64,000 nucleotides of DNA, from the IMG/VR virus record IMGVR_UViG_3300050016_000047, positions 1-64,000 of that record; one strand, written 5' to 3'. Shown piece by piece: positions 7,024 through 55,958 of this stretch (position 1 is the stretch's first letter; each line of letters starts with the position of its first letter). The stretch comes from a virus. The position numbers and the translations under genes are program-made. The notes beneath the pieces were generated by a model. That model did not search any database and was not told where the DNA came from. It saw nothing but the letters and a program-made list of their open reading frames with translations.

Positions 7024-7097
7024 TGGTAGCGAGAGCGGGAATCGAACCCGCAACTCCAGCTTATGAGACTGGCGAAATACCATTTTTCCATCTCGCA
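7024..7097 (-). tRNA. tRNA with CAT anticodon (Met or Ile2)
   Basis: Cloverleaf with anticodon arm CCAGT-CTCATAA-GCTGG, TTCGATT T-loop, encoded CCA, and a 1:72 mismatch. Confidence 0.9.
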
Positions 7098-14106: not shown

Positions 14107-14181
14107 TGGGGTGGCCGAACGGATTTGCACCGTTACTGTAAGCGCCACAGGCTTAAGTGCTACTGTTACACTACGGTCACT
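14107..14181 (-). tRNA. tRNA-His (GTG)
   Basis: Anticodon arm TAAGC-CTGTGGC-GCTTA, C73 discriminator, encoded CCA. Position -1 is A rather than G. Confidence 0.85.
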
Positions 14182-33624: not shown

Positions 33625-33698
33625 CGGGGCGTAGCTTAAGACAGAGCACTTGGTTTGGAACCAAGGCGGTGCAGGTTTAAGTCCTGCTGCCCCGACCA
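33625..33698 (+). tRNA. tRNA-Pro (TGG)
   Basis: CGGGGCG/TGCCCCG-A-CCA; anticodon arm CTTGG-TTTGGAA-CCAAG. Confidence 0.88.
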
Positions 33699-33763
33699 GT
33701 TTTAAACAGTTTTAAACAGTTTTAAACAGTTTTAAACAGTTTTAAACAGTTTTAAACAGTTTT
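33697..33763. repeat. Tandem repeat of the 10-bp unit TTTAAACAGT, six perfect copies
   Basis: Read directly at 33701-33760. Confidence 0.97.
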
Positions 33764-33836
33764 TAAAGAACCCACGTTTGTTCTAGAAGCTTGACGTACA
33801 ATCCGTCCTGTGTGGCCGGGAGAAAAGATATTATTT

Positions 33837-33977
33837 ATGTTACTTATATTACTTTTAGTGTTATTGTTATGCGGTGGTGGTTTTGGATATAGTACTTGGG
33901 GTCTTGCAGGTGGTGGTGGAATCGGTGGAGTAGTTCTGCTAGTTATCGTTATACTCCTTTTGACAGGGAGACTATAA
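33837..33977 (+). CDS. DUF3309-like small membrane protein
   Basis: MLLILLLVLLLCGGGFGYSTWGLAGGGGIGGVVLLVIVILLLTGRL, translated by hand. Confidence 0.7.
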   Translation: MLLILLLVLLLCGGGFGYSTWGLAGGGGIGGVVLLVIVILLLTGRL

Positions 33978-34201
33978 TGATTGGATTATTATTCTTAGTA
34001 GTCGTATGCGGCGTACTAGTGTATCTTGTAAACAACCTTGTACCCATGGACGGTAAATTCAAACTAGTTTTTAATTGTATAATCGGACTTATTCTATTAT
34101 ACTATGTTTTGAGTTTCTTTGGATTGGTTTCTCCCGCTCCCGGTTTTGGAGCGTATCCCGGTTATCCGTATCGCGGCGGTCCCGGTCCATACAGATATTA
34201 A
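33977..34201 (+). CDS. Thivi_2564-like small membrane protein
   Basis: GVLVYLVNNLVPMDGKFKLVFN between two transmembrane helices; TAATG coupling to the upstream gene. Confidence 0.65.
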   Translation: MIGLLFLVVVCGVLVYLVNNLVPMDGKFKLVFNCIIGLILLYYVLSFFGLVSPAPGFGAYPGYPYRGGPGPYRY

Positions 34202-34208
34202 TTTCCAC

Positions 34209-34282
34209 ATAGGAATAAGATAGTGGTAGTCTGGCTGCCTACAAATCAGTCAGCGGGTGTTCGATTCACTCTTCCTATGCCA
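34209..34282 (+). tRNA. tRNA with apparent ACA anticodon; identity uncertain
   Basis: ATAGGAA/TTCCTAT-G-CCA, TTCGATT T-loop, anticodon loop CTACAAA. Confidence 0.7.
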
Positions 34283-34287
34283 TTTAA

Positions 34288-34361
34288 GCGGGCTTGGTGT
34301 ATTGGCAGCGCCATAGTCTTCCAAACTATAGGAAAGGGTTCGATTCCCTTAGTCCGCTCCA
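34288..34361 (+). tRNA. tRNA-Gly (TCC)
   Basis: GCGGGCT/AGTCCGC-T-CCA; ATAGT-CTTCCAA-ACTAT. Confidence 0.92.
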
Positions 34362-34368
34362 TTTCTAA

Positions 34369-34441
34369 TGGCCTGTCGTATAATTGGCAATACGCCTCCC
34401 TGTTAAGGAGTACGATGTAGGTTCAAGTCCTACTGGGCCAG
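34369..34441 (+). tRNA. tRNA-Asn (GTT)
   Basis: CTCC-CTGTTAA-GGAG, GTAGG-TTCAAGT-CCTAC, G73. Confidence 0.9.
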
Positions 34442-34447
34442 CCTTTA

Positions 34448-34522
34448 GCTGGACTAGCTCCAATGTAGAGCAGCGCACCTGTAATGCGACGGTTCTCAGT
34501 TCAAGTCTGAGGTTCAGCCCCA
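34448..34522 (+). tRNA. tRNA-Thr (TGT) with C33
   Basis: GCTGGAC/GTTCAGC-C-CCA; CGCA-CCTGTAA-TGCG. Confidence 0.8.
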
Positions 34523-50594: not shown

Positions 50595-53163
50595 ATGAGT
50601 TACTCCCCGGCTTCGATTTTGACCTCTGGCTCGCTACCGAACCTAGTTGCTATTCACTATGAACGGTCAAGCATTCCAAACTTGAAAGCTCAAACTCCTT
50701 TCATGTCAATGACGAAGCAAAAACCGTTGCCGCTGCGAAGTGGTAACCAAATCCAGTTTTATACTTATGCTCTCTTGGCTGCTAATACCAACCAAGCCGC
50801 AGAAGGTACCGTAGGAAGTCCTATCTCCGAAAGCACCACAAAAATCGTGGCGACTATCGGTCAGTACGCGGACTTCATCAACTCTTCAGACCTAGCTATG
50901 GACGTAGCGATTGACGATCCGTCGTTGCTCCAGAACCTATCAGACGAGTTGAACTACCGCCTAGCCCTAACACTAAACTCACTAGTACAGCTAACCGCTG
51001 ATAGCGCGACAGGTGTTGACGGCAGCGTAAACATCCAACTAGCAGCGGGTTCATACCTAACTGCAAATAACATCCGTACTGCGGCCCAGCAACTAGCTGG
51101 CGTGAACGCCCGTCCTCTAACTAAGGATGGCTACATGGGCGGAATCATCCATAAAATAGCAGCATAATTAGGGGTGGATGATATAAACGACGACTAATGC
51201 CCTACGTCGTTCACGATAAACTTCAAAATGTCGTGAAACTTAAATTCAGCTATATCGGTGGAACTCTCAACAGAGACAATACCGAGGGAAGATACCATTG
51301 GAACATTCATTAACAGATTTGGCGTATGCAGCAGGAATTATAGACGGTGAAGGTAGTATACTAATACTTCGCGGAGTCGGCTATAATAGAAAAGGCGAAC
51401 CATATAAAAGATACGGTTGCCGAGTATCTGTTAGCATGACAGACAAACTTGTTCCTGAATGGCTTCATAAAAATTTCGGCGGTTCTTTTTATTTTCGCCA
51501 AATGAAAGGTGCTTGGAAAGACCAGCACATTTGGATGATAACGAATAGAAACGTAAGACTGTTCATCGCGGCTATAAAGCCGTTTCTTAAGACTAAATCT
51601 AAACAAGCTGATTTAGTTTTGGAATACCTAGACCATGTTCAAGAAAATAATCCCGAATATCGGGAATTGATGGTAGGTAGAATGAAAGAATTAAATCGAA
51701 AAGGTAAACCCGTAACGACTAATACGCTGAACAATCCGCAAAACGGATTGAAGATAGAGTCTGAACTTTTGGGAGACCAAAAGAGCGACCCGATTGTGAA
51801 ATCGGCGGTAGCAACAGTTTAGCTACAGTGACTTTAAAAAGCACTTCCAAAACACCTTGGTTTTGAATGATACCTCCAGCAACGGACTAAGTGATATTCT
51901 AAAACGTAACGAGAGCACAGTCGGTAAGCTATTTGCTCCTGTTTCCAACGAGGATACCATTGAGTTCGCGGGTGTTCGGTTAACAAAAGCTGCTTAAGCC
52001 GAATTAAAATCTAACTATATCGGTGAAGACCTTGATTATTTGCAAAAAGTGCAATCAACCAAAACAACCAAGTGAAATGGATAAAGGCCGAGAAGGTCGG
52101 CCAAATCTATCTACTTGTGCAAAGTGTCGCTATAAGAAACAAGCGGACTGGAAGAGAAATCATCCCAAAGTTCGTCTTGTTAATTTTGCCAAACACCGCG
52201 CCAAAGAAAAAGGTTTAGATTGTACAATAACCCACAACGATTTTGAAATTCCAGAGTTTTGCCCTGCAACCGGCATTAAGTTGGAAATAGGAGTCGGAAA
52301 ACTACACGATGCTTCTCCAACCCTTGACAGATTTATTCCAGCGTTAGGTTATGTACCGGGAAATGTAGTTGTTATCTCGTACAAAGCCAATCGAATTAAG
52401 AACAACGGAACTGCCAAAGACTTAGAGAATGTAGCAAAGTGGATGAAGCAAGTTCAAGAAAATACCGAGGGAAGACTGTCCGCAAAACGGACGGAACCCG
52501 TAGAGGCTAATACGTTAGACAGTGCCTTTGAAAAAGATGCACTGAAGATAGAGTCCGACCTTACAGGTGACTGTAAGAGAACGTCAGTGGTGACACTGGC
52601 GGCAACGGCACATAGATTAGATGTAGTTAACTACTGGCCGTAATAACAAAGCTGTTAAGCAGACCACAACCGCTCCAACCGCAACCATCTCCAGCCAGAC
52701 ATACTACAATACGTATATCTTCGCTGACGATGCTATTTTCTCCGTGTTCTTGGGTAAGAATCCTGAGACTGGCGAGAAGAACTATAAATTAATGATACAA
52801 GAAGCGCCAATGTCGGGTTCAGTTTCCGACCCAGCAAGGCAGATTGGTGGATGGGTAAGCTATTAATTATAGTAGCTTTGCAGAGTAATCTGCATCGAAC
52901 ACAAGGCTATATCGGTGAAACACTCTTTGAGTCAATACCGAGGGAAGGCCGCGAAAGCGGAACCCGTAGAGACTACACGCCTTGCTCCTTATTTTAAGGA
53001 TGATGATATAGTCCGTTCTGCATGGCGACATGCAGAGAGTAGCAGAAATGACTACTCTCGCTATCAAGCGATAACAATTAAGAATACCCGTTATACGAAC
53101 ACCCTTAGGCCGGGATCAACAATGGTGCTTCGCCGACTGCAATCACAAACTTCCAGTTCCTAA
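50595..53163 (+). CDS. Major capsid protein (N4 gp56-like), spliced: join(50595..51152,51200..51217,51860..51980,52655..52863,53083..53163), 328 aa
   Basis: The exons total 987 nt and join in frame: ...GGIIH|PYVVHD|VLND...AGVR|F|KQTT...GGWVSY|NTRY...SSS*. Capsid motifs AAEG, QYADFINSSD, GVRF and DPARQIG are present. Confidence 0.9.
51153..51199 (+). ncRNA. 47-nt coreless group I-like mini-intron (candidate)
   Basis: The 5' exon ends in U and the element ends in G. Internal GTGGATGAT pairs with exon ATCATCCAT (terminal U.G), and the adjacent TAGGG pairs with next-exon CCCTA. Confidence 0.7.
51218..51859 (+). mobile_element. Group I intron 1 of the capsid gene (encodes a LAGLIDADG ORF)
   Basis: P1 TTCACGAT/GTCGTGAA, P10 CAAAAT/GTTTTG, P3 TTCAGC/GCTGAA, P4 TCGGT/ACCGA, P7 GACT/AGTC, terminal G. 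Confidence 0.9.
51298..51822 (+). CDS. LAGLIDADG homing endonuclease (intron-encoded)
   Basis: LAYAAGIIDGEGSI, FGG, IKPFLKTKSKQA. Confidence 0.92.
   Translation: MEHSLTDLAYAAGIIDGEGSILILRGVGYNRKGEPYKRYGCRVSVSMTDKLVPEWLHKNFGGSFYFRQMKGAWKDQHIWMITNRNVRLFIAAIKPFLKTKSKQADLVLEYLDHVQENNPEYRELMVGRMKELNRKGKPVTTNTLNNPQNGLKIESELLGDQKSDPIVKSAVATV
51981..52654 (+). mobile_element. Group I intron 2 of the capsid gene (encodes an HNH-like ORF)
   Basis: P1 TTCGGT/GCCGAA, P10 CTGCTTAA/TTAAGCAG, P3 TCTAAC/GTTAGA, core AATACCGAGGGAAG...AAGATAGAGTCCGA, terminal G. Confidence 0.9.
52023..52643 (+). CDS. HNH-like homing endonuclease (intron-encoded)
   Basis: AKHRAKEKGL...CPATG...SPTLDRFIPALGYVPGNVVVISYKANRIK. 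Confidence 0.85.
   Translation: MKTLIICKKCNQPKQPSEMDKGREGRPNLSTCAKCRYKKQADWKRNHPKVRLVNFAKHRAKEKGLDCTITHNDFEIPEFCPATGIKLEIGVGKLHDASPTLDRFIPALGYVPGNVVVISYKANRIKNNGTAKDLENVAKWMKQVQENTEGRLSAKRTEPVEANTLDSAFEKDALKIESDLTGDCKRTSVVTLAATAHRLDVVNYWP
52864..53082 (+). mobile_element. Group I intron 3 of the capsid gene (219 nt, no internal endonuclease)
   Basis: P1 AAGCTAT/GTAGCTT, P2 GCAGA-GTAA-TCTGC, P3 CAAGGC/GCCTTG, P7 GAGACT/ATAGTCC, P9 TGCATG-GCGA-CATGCA, terminal G. Confidence 0.92.
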
Positions 53164-55510: not shown

Positions 55511-55792
55511 ATGCTACCACACTTTGACGGTACTGTTACTCTTGGTAATCTTCTTGAGCTTATAGGACTTTTGGTATTTGGATTACTTGCTTGGAGAGAT
55601 ATGAATTGGCGAATGAAAATTCAAGAAGAATTTAAAGCAGCGCAACTTGTAATTAATTTAAAGCGTGATGATCAATTAGTTCAACAGGAAAAAGATCTTA
55701 GCCTTGTTCGTGAAGCAATTGTTCAACTTACTGCCATGAATCAAGGACAAGATCGAAGACTTATACTACTTGAAAATCGCCAATATAGATAG
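55511..55792 (+). CDS. Single-TM coiled-coil membrane protein
   Basis: FDGTVTLGNLL, a transmembrane helix and a coiled coil. Confidence 0.5.
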   Translation: MLPHFDGTVTLGNLLELIGLLVFGLLAWRDMNWRMKIQEEFKAAQLVINLKRDDQLVQQEKDLSLVREAIVQLTAMNQGQDRRLILLENRQYR

Positions 55793-55958
55793 AATTCTAC
55801 CAGAACTGGGATACGTAAAAGGCAACGTGGCTGTTATGTCGTTTAGAGCAAACTCTCTAAAACGAGACGGATATTTAAAAGAATTTAAGTTATTAGTAAG
55901 TTGGTTGGAAGAACAAGAACTTCGCAGGATTGGCTCAGCGGCGACGGCAGCAGTTTAG
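55770..55958 (+). pseudogene. C-terminal remnant of an HNH-like endonuclease
   Basis: IDRILPELGYVKGNVAVMSFRANSLK matches the intron 2 ORF motif; the N-terminal half is missing. Confidence 0.75.

What the first reader, a model, noticed from the sequence alone, without database searches (positions are those of the whole stretch)
51144..51237. Coreless 47-nt group I-like mini-intron and an 18-nt micro-exon in the essential major capsid gene
Seen: capsid exon 1 ends ...GGIIH (CAT, 51152) and would hit TAA five codons later. The expected continuation PYVVHD appears as an isolated 18-nt exon (51200-51217) just before full intron 1. The 47 nt in between carry the substrate signals of a group I intron and nothing else: a U at the 5' splice site; an internal guide GTGGATGAT (51174-51182) forming a 9-bp P1 with ATCATCCAT closed by the canonical U.G; an abutting TAGGG pairing with the 3' exon start CCCTA (P10); AACGACG complementary to micro-exon CGTCGTT; and a terminal G (51199). 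The three full introns use the same P10-then-P1 guide layout. Established: group I catalysis needs the P3-P9 core, which cannot fit in 47 nt, and engineered group I cores can act on P1 substrates in trans. Inference: this is a non-autonomous satellite intron excised by a neighbouring ribozyme core, in cis or by an excised intron in trans. That would make the full introns indispensable for capsid synthesis. I know of no described natural example.
Basis: partly seen in the sequence, partly recalled or inferred. Interest (0 to 1): 0.93.

Follow-up and report, generated by a model that had tools for sequence, protein, structure and literature searches.

The report
Core-less group I mini-intron in capsid gene
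A 47-base insert in this soil phage's only capsid gene keeps the splice-site helices of a self-splicing (group I) intron but has no catalytic part, so it most likely borrows the ribozyme of the complete intron 18 bases downstream; no RNA data were available to show the splicing.

Summary
In the only major capsid gene of a 96-kb peat phage contig, 47 nt (51153-51199) separate codon H186 from an 18-nt micro-exon (51200-17, PYVVHD). Intron-less homologs read GGIIHPFVVHDVLND without a break.

- **Signals:** the insert has a 9-bp P1 ending in U.G, an abutting 5-bp P10 guide, a terminal G and a 7-bp helix with the micro-exon. P1+P10 this good arose in 0 of 200,000 shuffles. It has no P3-P9 core.
- **Recurrence:** about 20 distinct 31-59-nt inserts of the same build sit at about nine sites in relatives' capsid genes. 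One (39 nt, locus L024) is at the same site.
- **Partner:** in all 20 resolvable loci of the first search the next interruption downstream is a full intron, 16-182 nt away.
- **Origin:** full-length introns with homologous guides occupy the same sites elsewhere, so the minis are internal-deletion derivatives.
- **Selection:** compensatory changes keep P1, P10 and the third helix. The window and L024 are saturated at synonymous sites (pS 0.86) yet constrained downstream of the mini (pN/pS 0.2).

This rules out a dead scar and argues strongly against ribosomal hopping. Splicing by the neighbour's core is inferred, with no RNA evidence. The closest published analog is the 56-81-nt degenerate group I introns of fungal rDNA. 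The scan has noted the same phenomenon on other phage DNA.

The parts
50595..51152 (+). Capsid exon 1 (aa 1-186, ends GGIIH); N4-gp56-type major head protein
   Evidence: tblastn and spliced alignment to intron-less homolog P0001; PHROG major head protein; JGI names
51144..51152 (+). P1a 5' strand ATCATCCAT; U51152 is the 5' splice site
   Evidence: 9 bp with 51174-82, U.G at the end; in the MFE fold
51153..51199 (+). 47-nt core-less mini-intron
   Evidence: Interrupts H186|P187. Stops in all frames. No Rfam core hit. A 39-nt homolog sits at the same site in L024.
51153..51167 (+). In-frame read-on K-I-A-A-stop (GCAGCATAA at 51159-67)
   Evidence: The 12-nt stretch GCAGCATAATTA is shared with the L028 mini at another site.
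51169..51173 (+). P10a guide TAGGG, abutting the P1 guide
   Evidence: Pairs with 51200-04. Two compensatory changes against L024.
51174..51182 (+). Internal guide sequence a (GTGGATGAT), P1a 3' strand
   Evidence: Homologous guide in full introns at the same site in L044, L070, L076, L125 and L139.
51186..51192 (+). 5' strand of the third helix ('PM'), AACGACG
   Evidence: Pairs with micro-exon 51205-11. L024 has ACAACGA/TCGTTGT with a compensatory C-G to T-A change.
51199..51199 (+). Terminal G (omega G) of the mini-intron
   Evidence: Every mini modelled with P1 at the right splice site ends in G.
51200..51217 (+). 18-nt micro-exon PYVVHD (aa 187-192). Every base is paired: P10a 51200-04, PM 51205-11, P1b 51210-17.
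   Evidence: Against L024 it shows 3 synonymous and 1 conservative change.
51218..51859 (+). Intron 1: full group I intron, the proposed donor of the core. P10b guide 51222-29, guide b 51230-37, core halves about 51250-97 and about 51690-859, omega G 51859.
   Evidence: Rfam RF00028 partial hit at 51649-51783, 35 bits; core alignment with introns 2 and 3; P1 8 bp and P10 8 bp
51298..51822 (+). Homing-endonuclease ORF inside intron 1 (174 aa)
   Evidence: PHROG 5046 'HNH endonuclease', E 2e-22; weak Pfam LAGLIDADG_1 match below the cut-off
51860..51980 (+). Capsid exon 3 (aa 193-233)
51981..52654 (+). Intron 2: full group I intron with endonuclease ORF 52023-52643. Read-on ends in K-A-A-stop.
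   Evidence: Rfam partial hit, 31.6 bits; PHROG 3322 endonuclease
52655..52863 (+). Capsid exon 4 (aa 233-302)
52864..53082 (+). Intron 3: ORF-less 219-nt group I intron
   Evidence: RF00028, 61.3 bits, above the gathering score
53083..53163 (+). Capsid exon 5 (aa 303-328 plus stop)

Best explanation
The 47 nt are what remains of a full group I intron that once sat at capsid codon 186|187. An internal deletion removed everything from P2 to P9. What is left is the 5' end (loop, P10 guide, P1 guide) and the 3' end (a strand that pairs with the 3' exon, a short linker and the terminal G).

The remnant still folds into the substrate part of a group I intron. P1 presents U51152 in a U.G wobble. P10 and a third helix ('PM') hold the start of the micro-exon next to the terminal G.

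Because it has no guanosine-binding core, it cannot splice itself. The core is most likely supplied by intron 1, which begins 18 nt downstream on the same transcript. Introns 1-3, once excised, could also act on it in trans.

Two transesterifications, at 51152|51153 and 51199|51200, would join exon 1 to the micro-exon. Ordinary splicing of intron 1 then joins the micro-exon to exon 3, giving ...GGIIH-PYVVHD-VLND....

**Shown here:** the anatomy, its recurrence, its origin by deletion, the covariation, and selection on the gene.

**Inferred:** that the RNA is spliced at these junctions, and that a neighbouring core does the chemistry.
For: 1. **Homology.** Intron-less homologs are contiguous across the site, and removing exactly the 47 nt plus the three introns gives an open 984-nt frame.
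2. **Signals far beyond chance**.
3. **Same site in a distant relative.** L024 carries a 39-nt mini at 186|187, an 18-nt micro-exon and a 204-nt intron at 192|193. Between the window and L024, P10 has two compensatory double changes, PM has one, and P1b has one (and sequence reading).
4. **A family.** 16 unique minis came from the first set of loci and more from the second. They sit at aa 30/32, 40, 89, 92, 186, 269, 298/299 and 311, and one at aa 310 could not be modelled. Those modelled have U at the 5' splice site, a terminal G, P1 of 6-9 bp, an abutting P10 and a PM helix. Four of them (the aa-30 and aa-298 minis) fit only with one P1 mismatch. Compensatory changes occur at sites 299 and 30.
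5. **Partner.** In 20 of 20 resolvable loci the next interruption downstream is a full intron, 16-182 nt away. Combined p for that closeness is 0.0013 over 8 site classes assumed independent.
6. **Deletion origin.** Full introns with homologous P10 and P1 guides occupy the same sites in other genomes: aa 186 in L044, L070, L076, L125 and L139; aa 32 in L050; aa 40 in L043; aa 89 in L071.
7. **PM is specific to the minis.** Mean longest helix is 6.5 bp in minis against 4.8 bp for the 3' tails of full introns (Mann-Whitney p 0.0004).
8. **The gene is alive.** Window and L024 capsid genes have pS 0.86 (saturated) and pN 0.14. Downstream of the mini, pN/pS is 0.2.
9. **No way round it.** This is the only capsid gene, and introns 1-3 are the only group I cores, in the 96-kb record, which is 93% complete.
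10. **Intron 1 has a complete core** that aligns with intron 3, the Rfam-positive intron.
11. **Published precedent.** In engineered tandem Tetrahymena introns a downstream core can use a distal upstream 5' splice site (PMC10136302).
Against: - No RNA data exist. The only run holding the sequence is the DNA metagenome it probably came from.
- No natural case of a group I core splicing a separate core-less intron has been demonstrated.
- The terminal G of the mini is not tethered to P7 or P9.0 of the helper core, so the second step would need an unusual docking.
- Only two examples exist at this particular site.
- The association with a downstream intron could partly reflect how minis arise (by deletion in intron-dense genes) rather than how they are spliced.
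- A published claim says that 67-nt fungal mini-introns self-splice with help from flanking exon RNA (PMC3160393). That leaves open a helper other than the neighbouring intron.
Confidence: 0.65

Rival explanations
1. Autonomous minimal ribozyme. The 47 nt, perhaps helped by flanking exon RNA, splice themselves without any neighbouring intron, as reported for the 67-nt PaSSU intron of Phialophora.
For: [quoted passage not shown] That is the same set of helices I find here. In vitro splicing was reported when about 300 nt of exon was present.
Against: The mini has no P7-like helix or other candidate guanosine pocket: only 3 nt lie between the guide and PM. All 20 resolvable minis have a full intron just downstream, which an autonomous element would not need.
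Confidence: 0.1
2. Dead scar. An internal deletion killed an intron and with it the capsid gene, so the contig represents a defective phage, or the deletion is an assembly artefact.
For: The element clearly arose by deletion. The genome is a metagenome assembly at about 13x depth.
Against: - The same architecture persists in L024, at saturating synonymous divergence, with pN/pS 0.2 downstream.
- Compensatory changes maintain P10 and PM.
- About 20 further minis in many samples all restore the frame exactly.
- This is the only capsid gene in the record.
- A second assembler gives the same sequence.
Confidence: 0.04
3. Translational bypass. The ribosome hops over the 47 nt, as over the 50-nt gap of T4 gene 60, or the capsid is made as two polypeptides restarting at ATG 51197.
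For: The gap has about the size of the T4 gap (own knowledge). A stop lies shortly after the last exon codon. An in-frame ATG (51197-99) directly precedes the micro-exon, and L024 has TTG there.
Against: - There are no matched take-off and landing codons: CAT against ATG in the window, CAT against TTG in L024.
- The aa-299 minis of L023, L028, L065, L072, L079, L165 and L166 lie inside the Trp codon (T|GG). No TGG exists downstream, so only joining of the RNA can rebuild it.
- Covariation of P1 with the 5' exon and of P10 with the 3' exon is not explained by hopping or restart.
- No Shine-Dalgarno sequence lies at a usable distance from the ATG.
Confidence: 0.04
4. Alternative 5' splice site. 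P1a is used by intron 1 with its own 3' splice site, so the mRNA skips the micro-exon, either always or as an isoform.
For: Exon skipping occurs between tandem group I introns that flank short exons: Twort orf142 (23 nt) and Coxiella 23S (34 nt), as summarised in PMC10136302.
Against: The micro-exon is under coding constraint: PYVVHD against PFVVHD, with 3 synonymous and 1 conservative change at saturating divergence. It is contiguous in all intron-less homologs. P10a, PM and G51199 specify a 3' splice site at 51199 and co-vary. Skipping may still occur as a by-product.
Confidence: 0.07

Closest known systems
Degenerate small group I introns of fungal nuclear SSU rDNA (Phialophora PaSSU, 67 nt; 56-81 nt in Porpidia and Arthonia), PMC3160393
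   Same: Tens of nucleotides long. [quoted passage not shown]
   Different: The fungal introns sit in rRNA genes, have a putative P7, use a terminal U, and are reported to self-splice with about 300 nt of flanking exon. Here the host is a phage protein-coding gene, no P7 is present, the terminal base is G, and a full intron always lies 16-182 nt downstream.
Tandem phage and bacterial group I introns flanking short exons (Twort orf142 introns 2 and 3, 23-nt exon; Coxiella 23S rRNA, 34-nt exon), and engineered tandem Tetrahymena introns (PMC10136302)
   Same: Two sets of group I splice sites are separated by a very short exon. Cross-talk between neighbouring introns is documented, and a downstream core can act on a distal upstream 5' splice site.
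   Different: In those cases both introns have their own core. Here the upstream one has none, so the cross-talk would be obligatory rather than a side reaction.
Canonical phage group I introns with homing endonucleases (T4 td, nrdB, sunY; Rfam RF00028)
   Same: U.G at the 5' splice site, a guide sequence forming P1 and P10, a terminal G, and an early in-frame stop. Introns 1-3 of this gene are ordinary members.
   Different: The 47-nt element has no core, no ORF and no Rfam match.
T4 gene 60 50-nt translational bypass (own knowledge)
   Same: A gap of about 50 nt in an essential phage gene. The T4 element is linked to homing-endonuclease biology.
   Different: Bypass needs matched take-off and landing codons, which are absent here. 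Related minis split a codon, which hopping cannot repair.
Fragmented or trans-spliced group I introns with micro-exons in organelles (placozoan cox1, PMC5436844)
   Same: Group I splicing around very small exons, with intron parts supplied by separate RNA.
   Different: There the core itself is split and reassembles. Here a complete foreign core would serve a second substrate.

Membership tests
Group I intron (RF00028) | P1 helix of 5' exon with internal guide, U.G wobble at the 5' splice site | tested here: met
   9 bp, 51144-52 with 51174-82, ending in U.G. P1 of 9 bp or more in 92 of 200,000 shuffles.
Group I intron (RF00028) | P10 pairing of the guide region with the 3' exon, and a terminal G | tested here: met
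   TAGGG/CCCTA abutting the guide, G51199. Compensatory changes against L024.
Group I intron (RF00028) | Catalytic core P3-P9 with the guanosine-binding P7 | tested here: not met
   No Rfam match in 51153-51199, even at E up to 10. Only 3 nt lie between the guide and PM, and 47 nt in all.
Group I intron (RF00028) | Self-splicing with GTP and Mg | not testable with these tools
   No RNA run holds the sequence. An in vitro assay is needed.
Fungal degenerate small group I introns (PaSSU type) | P1, P10 and a 'PM' helix between mid-intron and 3' exon in an intron of under 100 nt | tested here: met
   compared with the description in PMC3160393.
Fungal degenerate small group I introns (PaSSU type) | Residual P7; location in nuclear SSU rDNA; common descent with the fungal introns | tested here: not met
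   No P7-like helix. The host gene is a phage capsid gene. The mini descends from phage introns at the same capsid site.
Programmed translational bypass (T4 gene 60 type) | Matched take-off and landing codons flanking the gap | tested here: not met
   CAT against ATG in the window and CAT against TTG in L024. Aa-299 minis split the Trp codon.
Non-autonomous partner of a full intron (proposed class) | A full group I intron immediately downstream on the same transcript | tested here: met
   Window: intron 1 lies 18 nt downstream. 20 of 20 resolvable minis have such a partner; combined p 0.0013.
Non-autonomous partner of a full intron (proposed class) | Excision depends on the neighbour's core | not testable with these tools
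   Needs splicing assays with the core of intron 1 inactivated.

The most novel reading that the evidence does not exclude
Phage capsid genes carry a class of non-autonomous 'satellite' group I introns. These are 30-60-nt remnants that keep only the substrate helices (P1, P10 and a third helix with the 3' exon) and are spliced by the ribozyme core of the next intron downstream. One ribozyme would then serve two introns, and the full intron would become indispensable to the phage. The remnant would still destroy the homing site of the endonuclease that targets its position, so it might act as a cheap immunity scar.
Probability: 0.6. Interest if true: 0.9.

Novelty: new variant of a known kind. 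Interest (0 to 1): 0.8.

Why it matters
Group I introns are textbook self-splicing elements: each carries its own ribozyme. A natural intron that has lost its core and lives on a neighbour's would be the RNA-splicing counterpart of MITEs and SINEs.

- It would show that group I cores act on foreign P1/P10 substrates in vivo.
- It would turn a 'selfish' full intron into an essential gene-expression factor for the phage.
- It would explain how intron-dense phage genes can shed intron mass without precise deletion.

It also matters for annotation. Gene callers truncate such capsid genes, as the many fragment proteins show. The system is small enough (about 1 kb) to test directly in vitro.

Tried and rejected
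- **RNA evidence.** No RNA holder was listed. The only run is the DNA metagenome that is probably the source. Laying its contigs only confirmed the assembly.
- **More copies of the site-186 mini.** An exact-motif scan of IMG/VR found none. Gapped patterns found only L024's contig in IMG/VR. In JGI metagenomes they found 29 unrelated or chance hits. A second locus search seeded with P0121 found only full introns at site 186, in L125 and L139.
The contigs behind P0121 and P0125 could not be fetched that way. The read-on of P0125 suggests a 192|193 intron without the mini, but this was not checked on DNA.
- **blastn** against GenBank phages gave no relative.
- **Ribosomal hopping, a split gene with restart, and read-through or frameshifting** were considered and rejected (see rivals; stops lie in all three frames).
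- **Strand swap.** I considered whether the mini's tail could replace the P3 5' strand of intron 1. The tail has no TTCAGC-like segment.
- **Spliced-alignment artefacts** near locus ends or inside introns (L148, L155, L166 aa 68, L079 aa 311, L043 80 and 138 nt) were set aside. L126 aa 310 could not be modelled.
- **Literature.** Five searches found no description of core-less introns beside full introns in phages.
Full report
**Setting.** The window is the first 64 kb of a 96,442-bp IMG/VR virus record, estimated 93% complete. It was probably assembled from a peat metagenome. The ORF at 50595-51167 is the N-terminal part of an N4-gp56-type major head protein. More than 100 intron-less homologs of 327-328 aa exist at about 90% identity over this part.

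**Gene structure.** I used tblastn and a spliced protein-to-DNA alignment of my own against homolog P0001. They give five exons:
- 50595-51152
- 51200-51217
- 51860-51980
- 52655-52863
- 53083-53160, followed by the stop codon

The interruptions are:
- the 47-nt insert, 51153-51199
- intron 1, 51218-51859 (642 nt, with an endonuclease ORF)
- intron 2, 51981-52654 (674 nt, with an endonuclease ORF)
- intron 3, 52864-53082 (219 nt; RF00028 at 61 bits)

Introns 1 and 2 give partial Rfam hits because their ORFs split the core. Their core halves align with intron 3. All three begin after a U and end in G. The record holds no second capsid gene and no other group I core.

**The observation.**
- P1a is 9 bp and ends in U.G.
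- The P10a guide TAGGG abuts the P1 guide and pairs with the first five bases of the micro-exon.
- AACGACG (51186-92) pairs with micro-exon bases 6-12.
- The last base of the insert is G.
- The micro-exon's last eight bases form P1b with the guide of intron 1, so all 18 bases are paired.

P1+P10 of 14 bp or more never arose in 200,000 shuffles. The homolog reads GGIIH-PFVVHD-VLND without a break, so the micro-exon is real. The 47 nt carry stops in all three frames. A Logan contig of the source run covers the region without a difference.

**A family, not a singleton.** Capsid genes of related IMG/VR contigs are extraordinarily rich in introns. One gene has up to nine full introns plus a mini. 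Among 184 unique interruptions, about 20 distinct ones are 31-59 nt long. They lie at aa 30/32, 40, 89, 92, 186, 269, 298/299, 310 and 311.

After allowing a 1-nt boundary shift that does not change the protein, those I could model have the same build:
- U at the 5' splice site
- a terminal G
- P1 of 6-9 bp closed by U.G
- a P10 guide directly abutting the P1 guide
- a third helix between the later part of the insert and the 3' exon just after P10

Four of them (the aa-30 minis of L044 and L064, and the aa-298 minis of L052 and L066) fit only with one mismatch in P1. The mini at aa 310 in L126 could not be modelled. P1, P10 and the third helix cross one another, so together they would form a stacked double pseudoknot. 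That last point is my inference from the pairing order.

**The same site in L024.** Locus L024 has a 39-nt mini at exactly 186|187, an 18-nt micro-exon (PFVVHD) and a 204-nt ORF-less intron at 192|193.

**Covariation.** Between the window and L024:
- P10 positions +3 (C-G to A-T) and +5 (A-T to T-A) changed on both sides.
- The third helix changed C-G to T-A at exon base 9.
- P1b changed T-A to C-G (and direct reading).

At site 299, P1 positions -2 and -5 and P10 position +5 show double changes. At site 30, both P1 and P10 do. In L125, a full intron at site 186, the exon change ATCATCCAT to ATCATGCAT is matched by a guide change from GTGGATG to GTGCATG.

**Origin.** Full introns of 648-819 nt sit at 186|187 in L044-46, L070, L076, L125 and L139. 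They have the same P10-then-P1 guide (TAGGGTGGATG or TTTGGGTGGAT) followed by TAAAAT. The 5' 24 nt and the last 10 nt or so of L024's mini resemble the ends of the L139 intron. Full counterparts also exist for the minis at aa 32 (L050), 40 (L043) and 89 (L071). The minis are therefore internal-deletion derivatives that lost P2-P9.

**The third helix is specific to minis.** It is longer in minis than in the 3' tails of full introns (mean 6.5 against 4.8 bp, p 0.0004). This suggests it was gained or strengthened after the deletion.

**The gene is alive.** The spliced capsid frames of the window and L024 are both open and 984 nt long. They share 68% of bases and 86% of residues. Synonymous sites are saturated (pS 0.86) while pN is 0.14. 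For aa 187-328, downstream of the mini, pN/pS is 0.2. The micro-exon differs by three synonymous changes and one conservative change.

A capsid gene broken by an unremovable insert would not stay under such constraint. This excludes the dead-scar reading and shows that the micro-exon is translated.

**Not hopping, not a split gene.** No matched take-off and landing codons exist. Seven of the aa-299 minis (L023, L028, L065, L072, L079, L165, L166) lie inside the Trp codon (T|GG), with no TGG downstream. Only joining of the RNA restores the protein.

**Who supplies the chemistry?** The mini has no room for a guanosine pocket. In all 20 resolvable loci of the first search, the next interruption downstream is a full intron, 16-182 nt away. 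Only 8 of the 20 have a full intron as their upstream neighbour, and that one is 67-148 nt away. The combined p for the downstream closeness is 0.0013 over eight site classes treated as independent.

The same mini site pairs with different partner sites: 299 goes with 304, 311 or 318. At site 186 the two partner introns differ a great deal in size and sequence. Proximity therefore seems to matter, not a particular core.

A mini placed upstream is already folded when the core is transcribed. A mini placed downstream would lose its helper once that intron had excised itself. This argument about order is my inference.

Published work shows that a downstream Tetrahymena core can use a distal upstream 5' splice site in engineered tandems. 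It also shows that natural tandem introns cross-react: Twort with a 23-nt exon and Coxiella with a 34-nt exon (PMC10136302). I therefore favour splicing by intron 1 in cis, with trans action of excised introns 1-3 as a fallback. None of this is demonstrated.

**Comparison with what is known.** The nearest published objects are the 56-81-nt degenerate group I introns of fungal SSU rDNA. They keep P1, P7, P10 and a 'PM' helix with the 3' exon. One 67-nt member was reported to splice in vitro when about 300 nt of exon was attached (PMC3160393).

The phage minis share P1, P10 and PM. They lack P7, end in G, sit in a protein-coding gene, and are tied to a full intron. Five full-text searches found no description of such an arrangement in phages. 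The scan's own earlier notes report the same phenomenon in at least eight other phage genomes. Those notes are unchecked, and I treat them as agreement, not as evidence.

**Verdict.** The claim of no natural precedent needs the fungal caveat.

Noticed in passing
window 51153-51167 and 51981-51997; related loci L024, L028, L041, L043, L044, L050, L055-57, L063, L065, L066, L068, L074-76, L126, L133, L156, L164-166: Reading on from the upstream exon into these capsid introns very often ends in Ala-Ala-stop. The motif GCN GCN T(AA/AG/GA), searched in the first 150 nt, occurs 28 times in frame with the exon, 2 times in frame +1 and 0 times in frame +2, at 12 different insertion sites. The window's mini (K-I-A-A-stop) and intron 2 (T-K-A-A-stop) both have it. 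A C-terminal -AA resembles the end of the ssrA tag, so truncated products of unspliced mRNA may be marked for proteolysis. I have not seen this described.
   Followed up: partly
L044/45/46, L070, L076, L125, L139 (intron at aa 186); L056, L057, L063, L068 (intron at aa 73): These full-length group I introns end in A (..GTA| or ..TTA|), not in the near-universal terminal G. P1 and P10 fix the junction. At aa 73, the G-ending relative L065 shows the same P7 sequence. Both minis at aa 186 end in G, as does their partner intron.
   Followed up: partly
window 51159-51170 and L028 3689-3700: The 12-nt stretch GCAGCATAATTA is identical in the loop of the window's mini (site 186) and of the L028 mini (site 299). 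The guide sequences next to it differ completely. It occurs in no other of the 117 loci held at that point. L165's mini has GCAGCATGA. This could be common descent with retargeted guides, or selection for the Ala-Ala-stop.
   Followed up: partly
related loci L165, L074, L079, L050, L070: The capsid gene family is an extreme intron hot-spot. A 984-nt coding sequence carries up to nine full introns plus a mini (L165), with exons as short as 16 nt.
   Followed up: partly
window 55770-55958: A short ORF (62 aa) downstream of the tail-fibre-like gene resembles the C-terminal part of the intron 2 endonuclease (shared ...LGYV.GNV.V.S..AN..K..G motif, seen). It may be a remnant or a free-standing homing-endonuclease fragment.
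   Followed up: no
window 33625-34519, 7027-7097 (-), 14110-14180 (-): Seven tRNA genes, five of them clustered at 33.6-34.5 kb.
   Followed up: no
protein P0125: A database ORF reads ...GGLIHPYVVHD and then KKNVVNKSS. This suggests a relative that has the 192|193 intron but no mini at 186|187.
   Followed up: no
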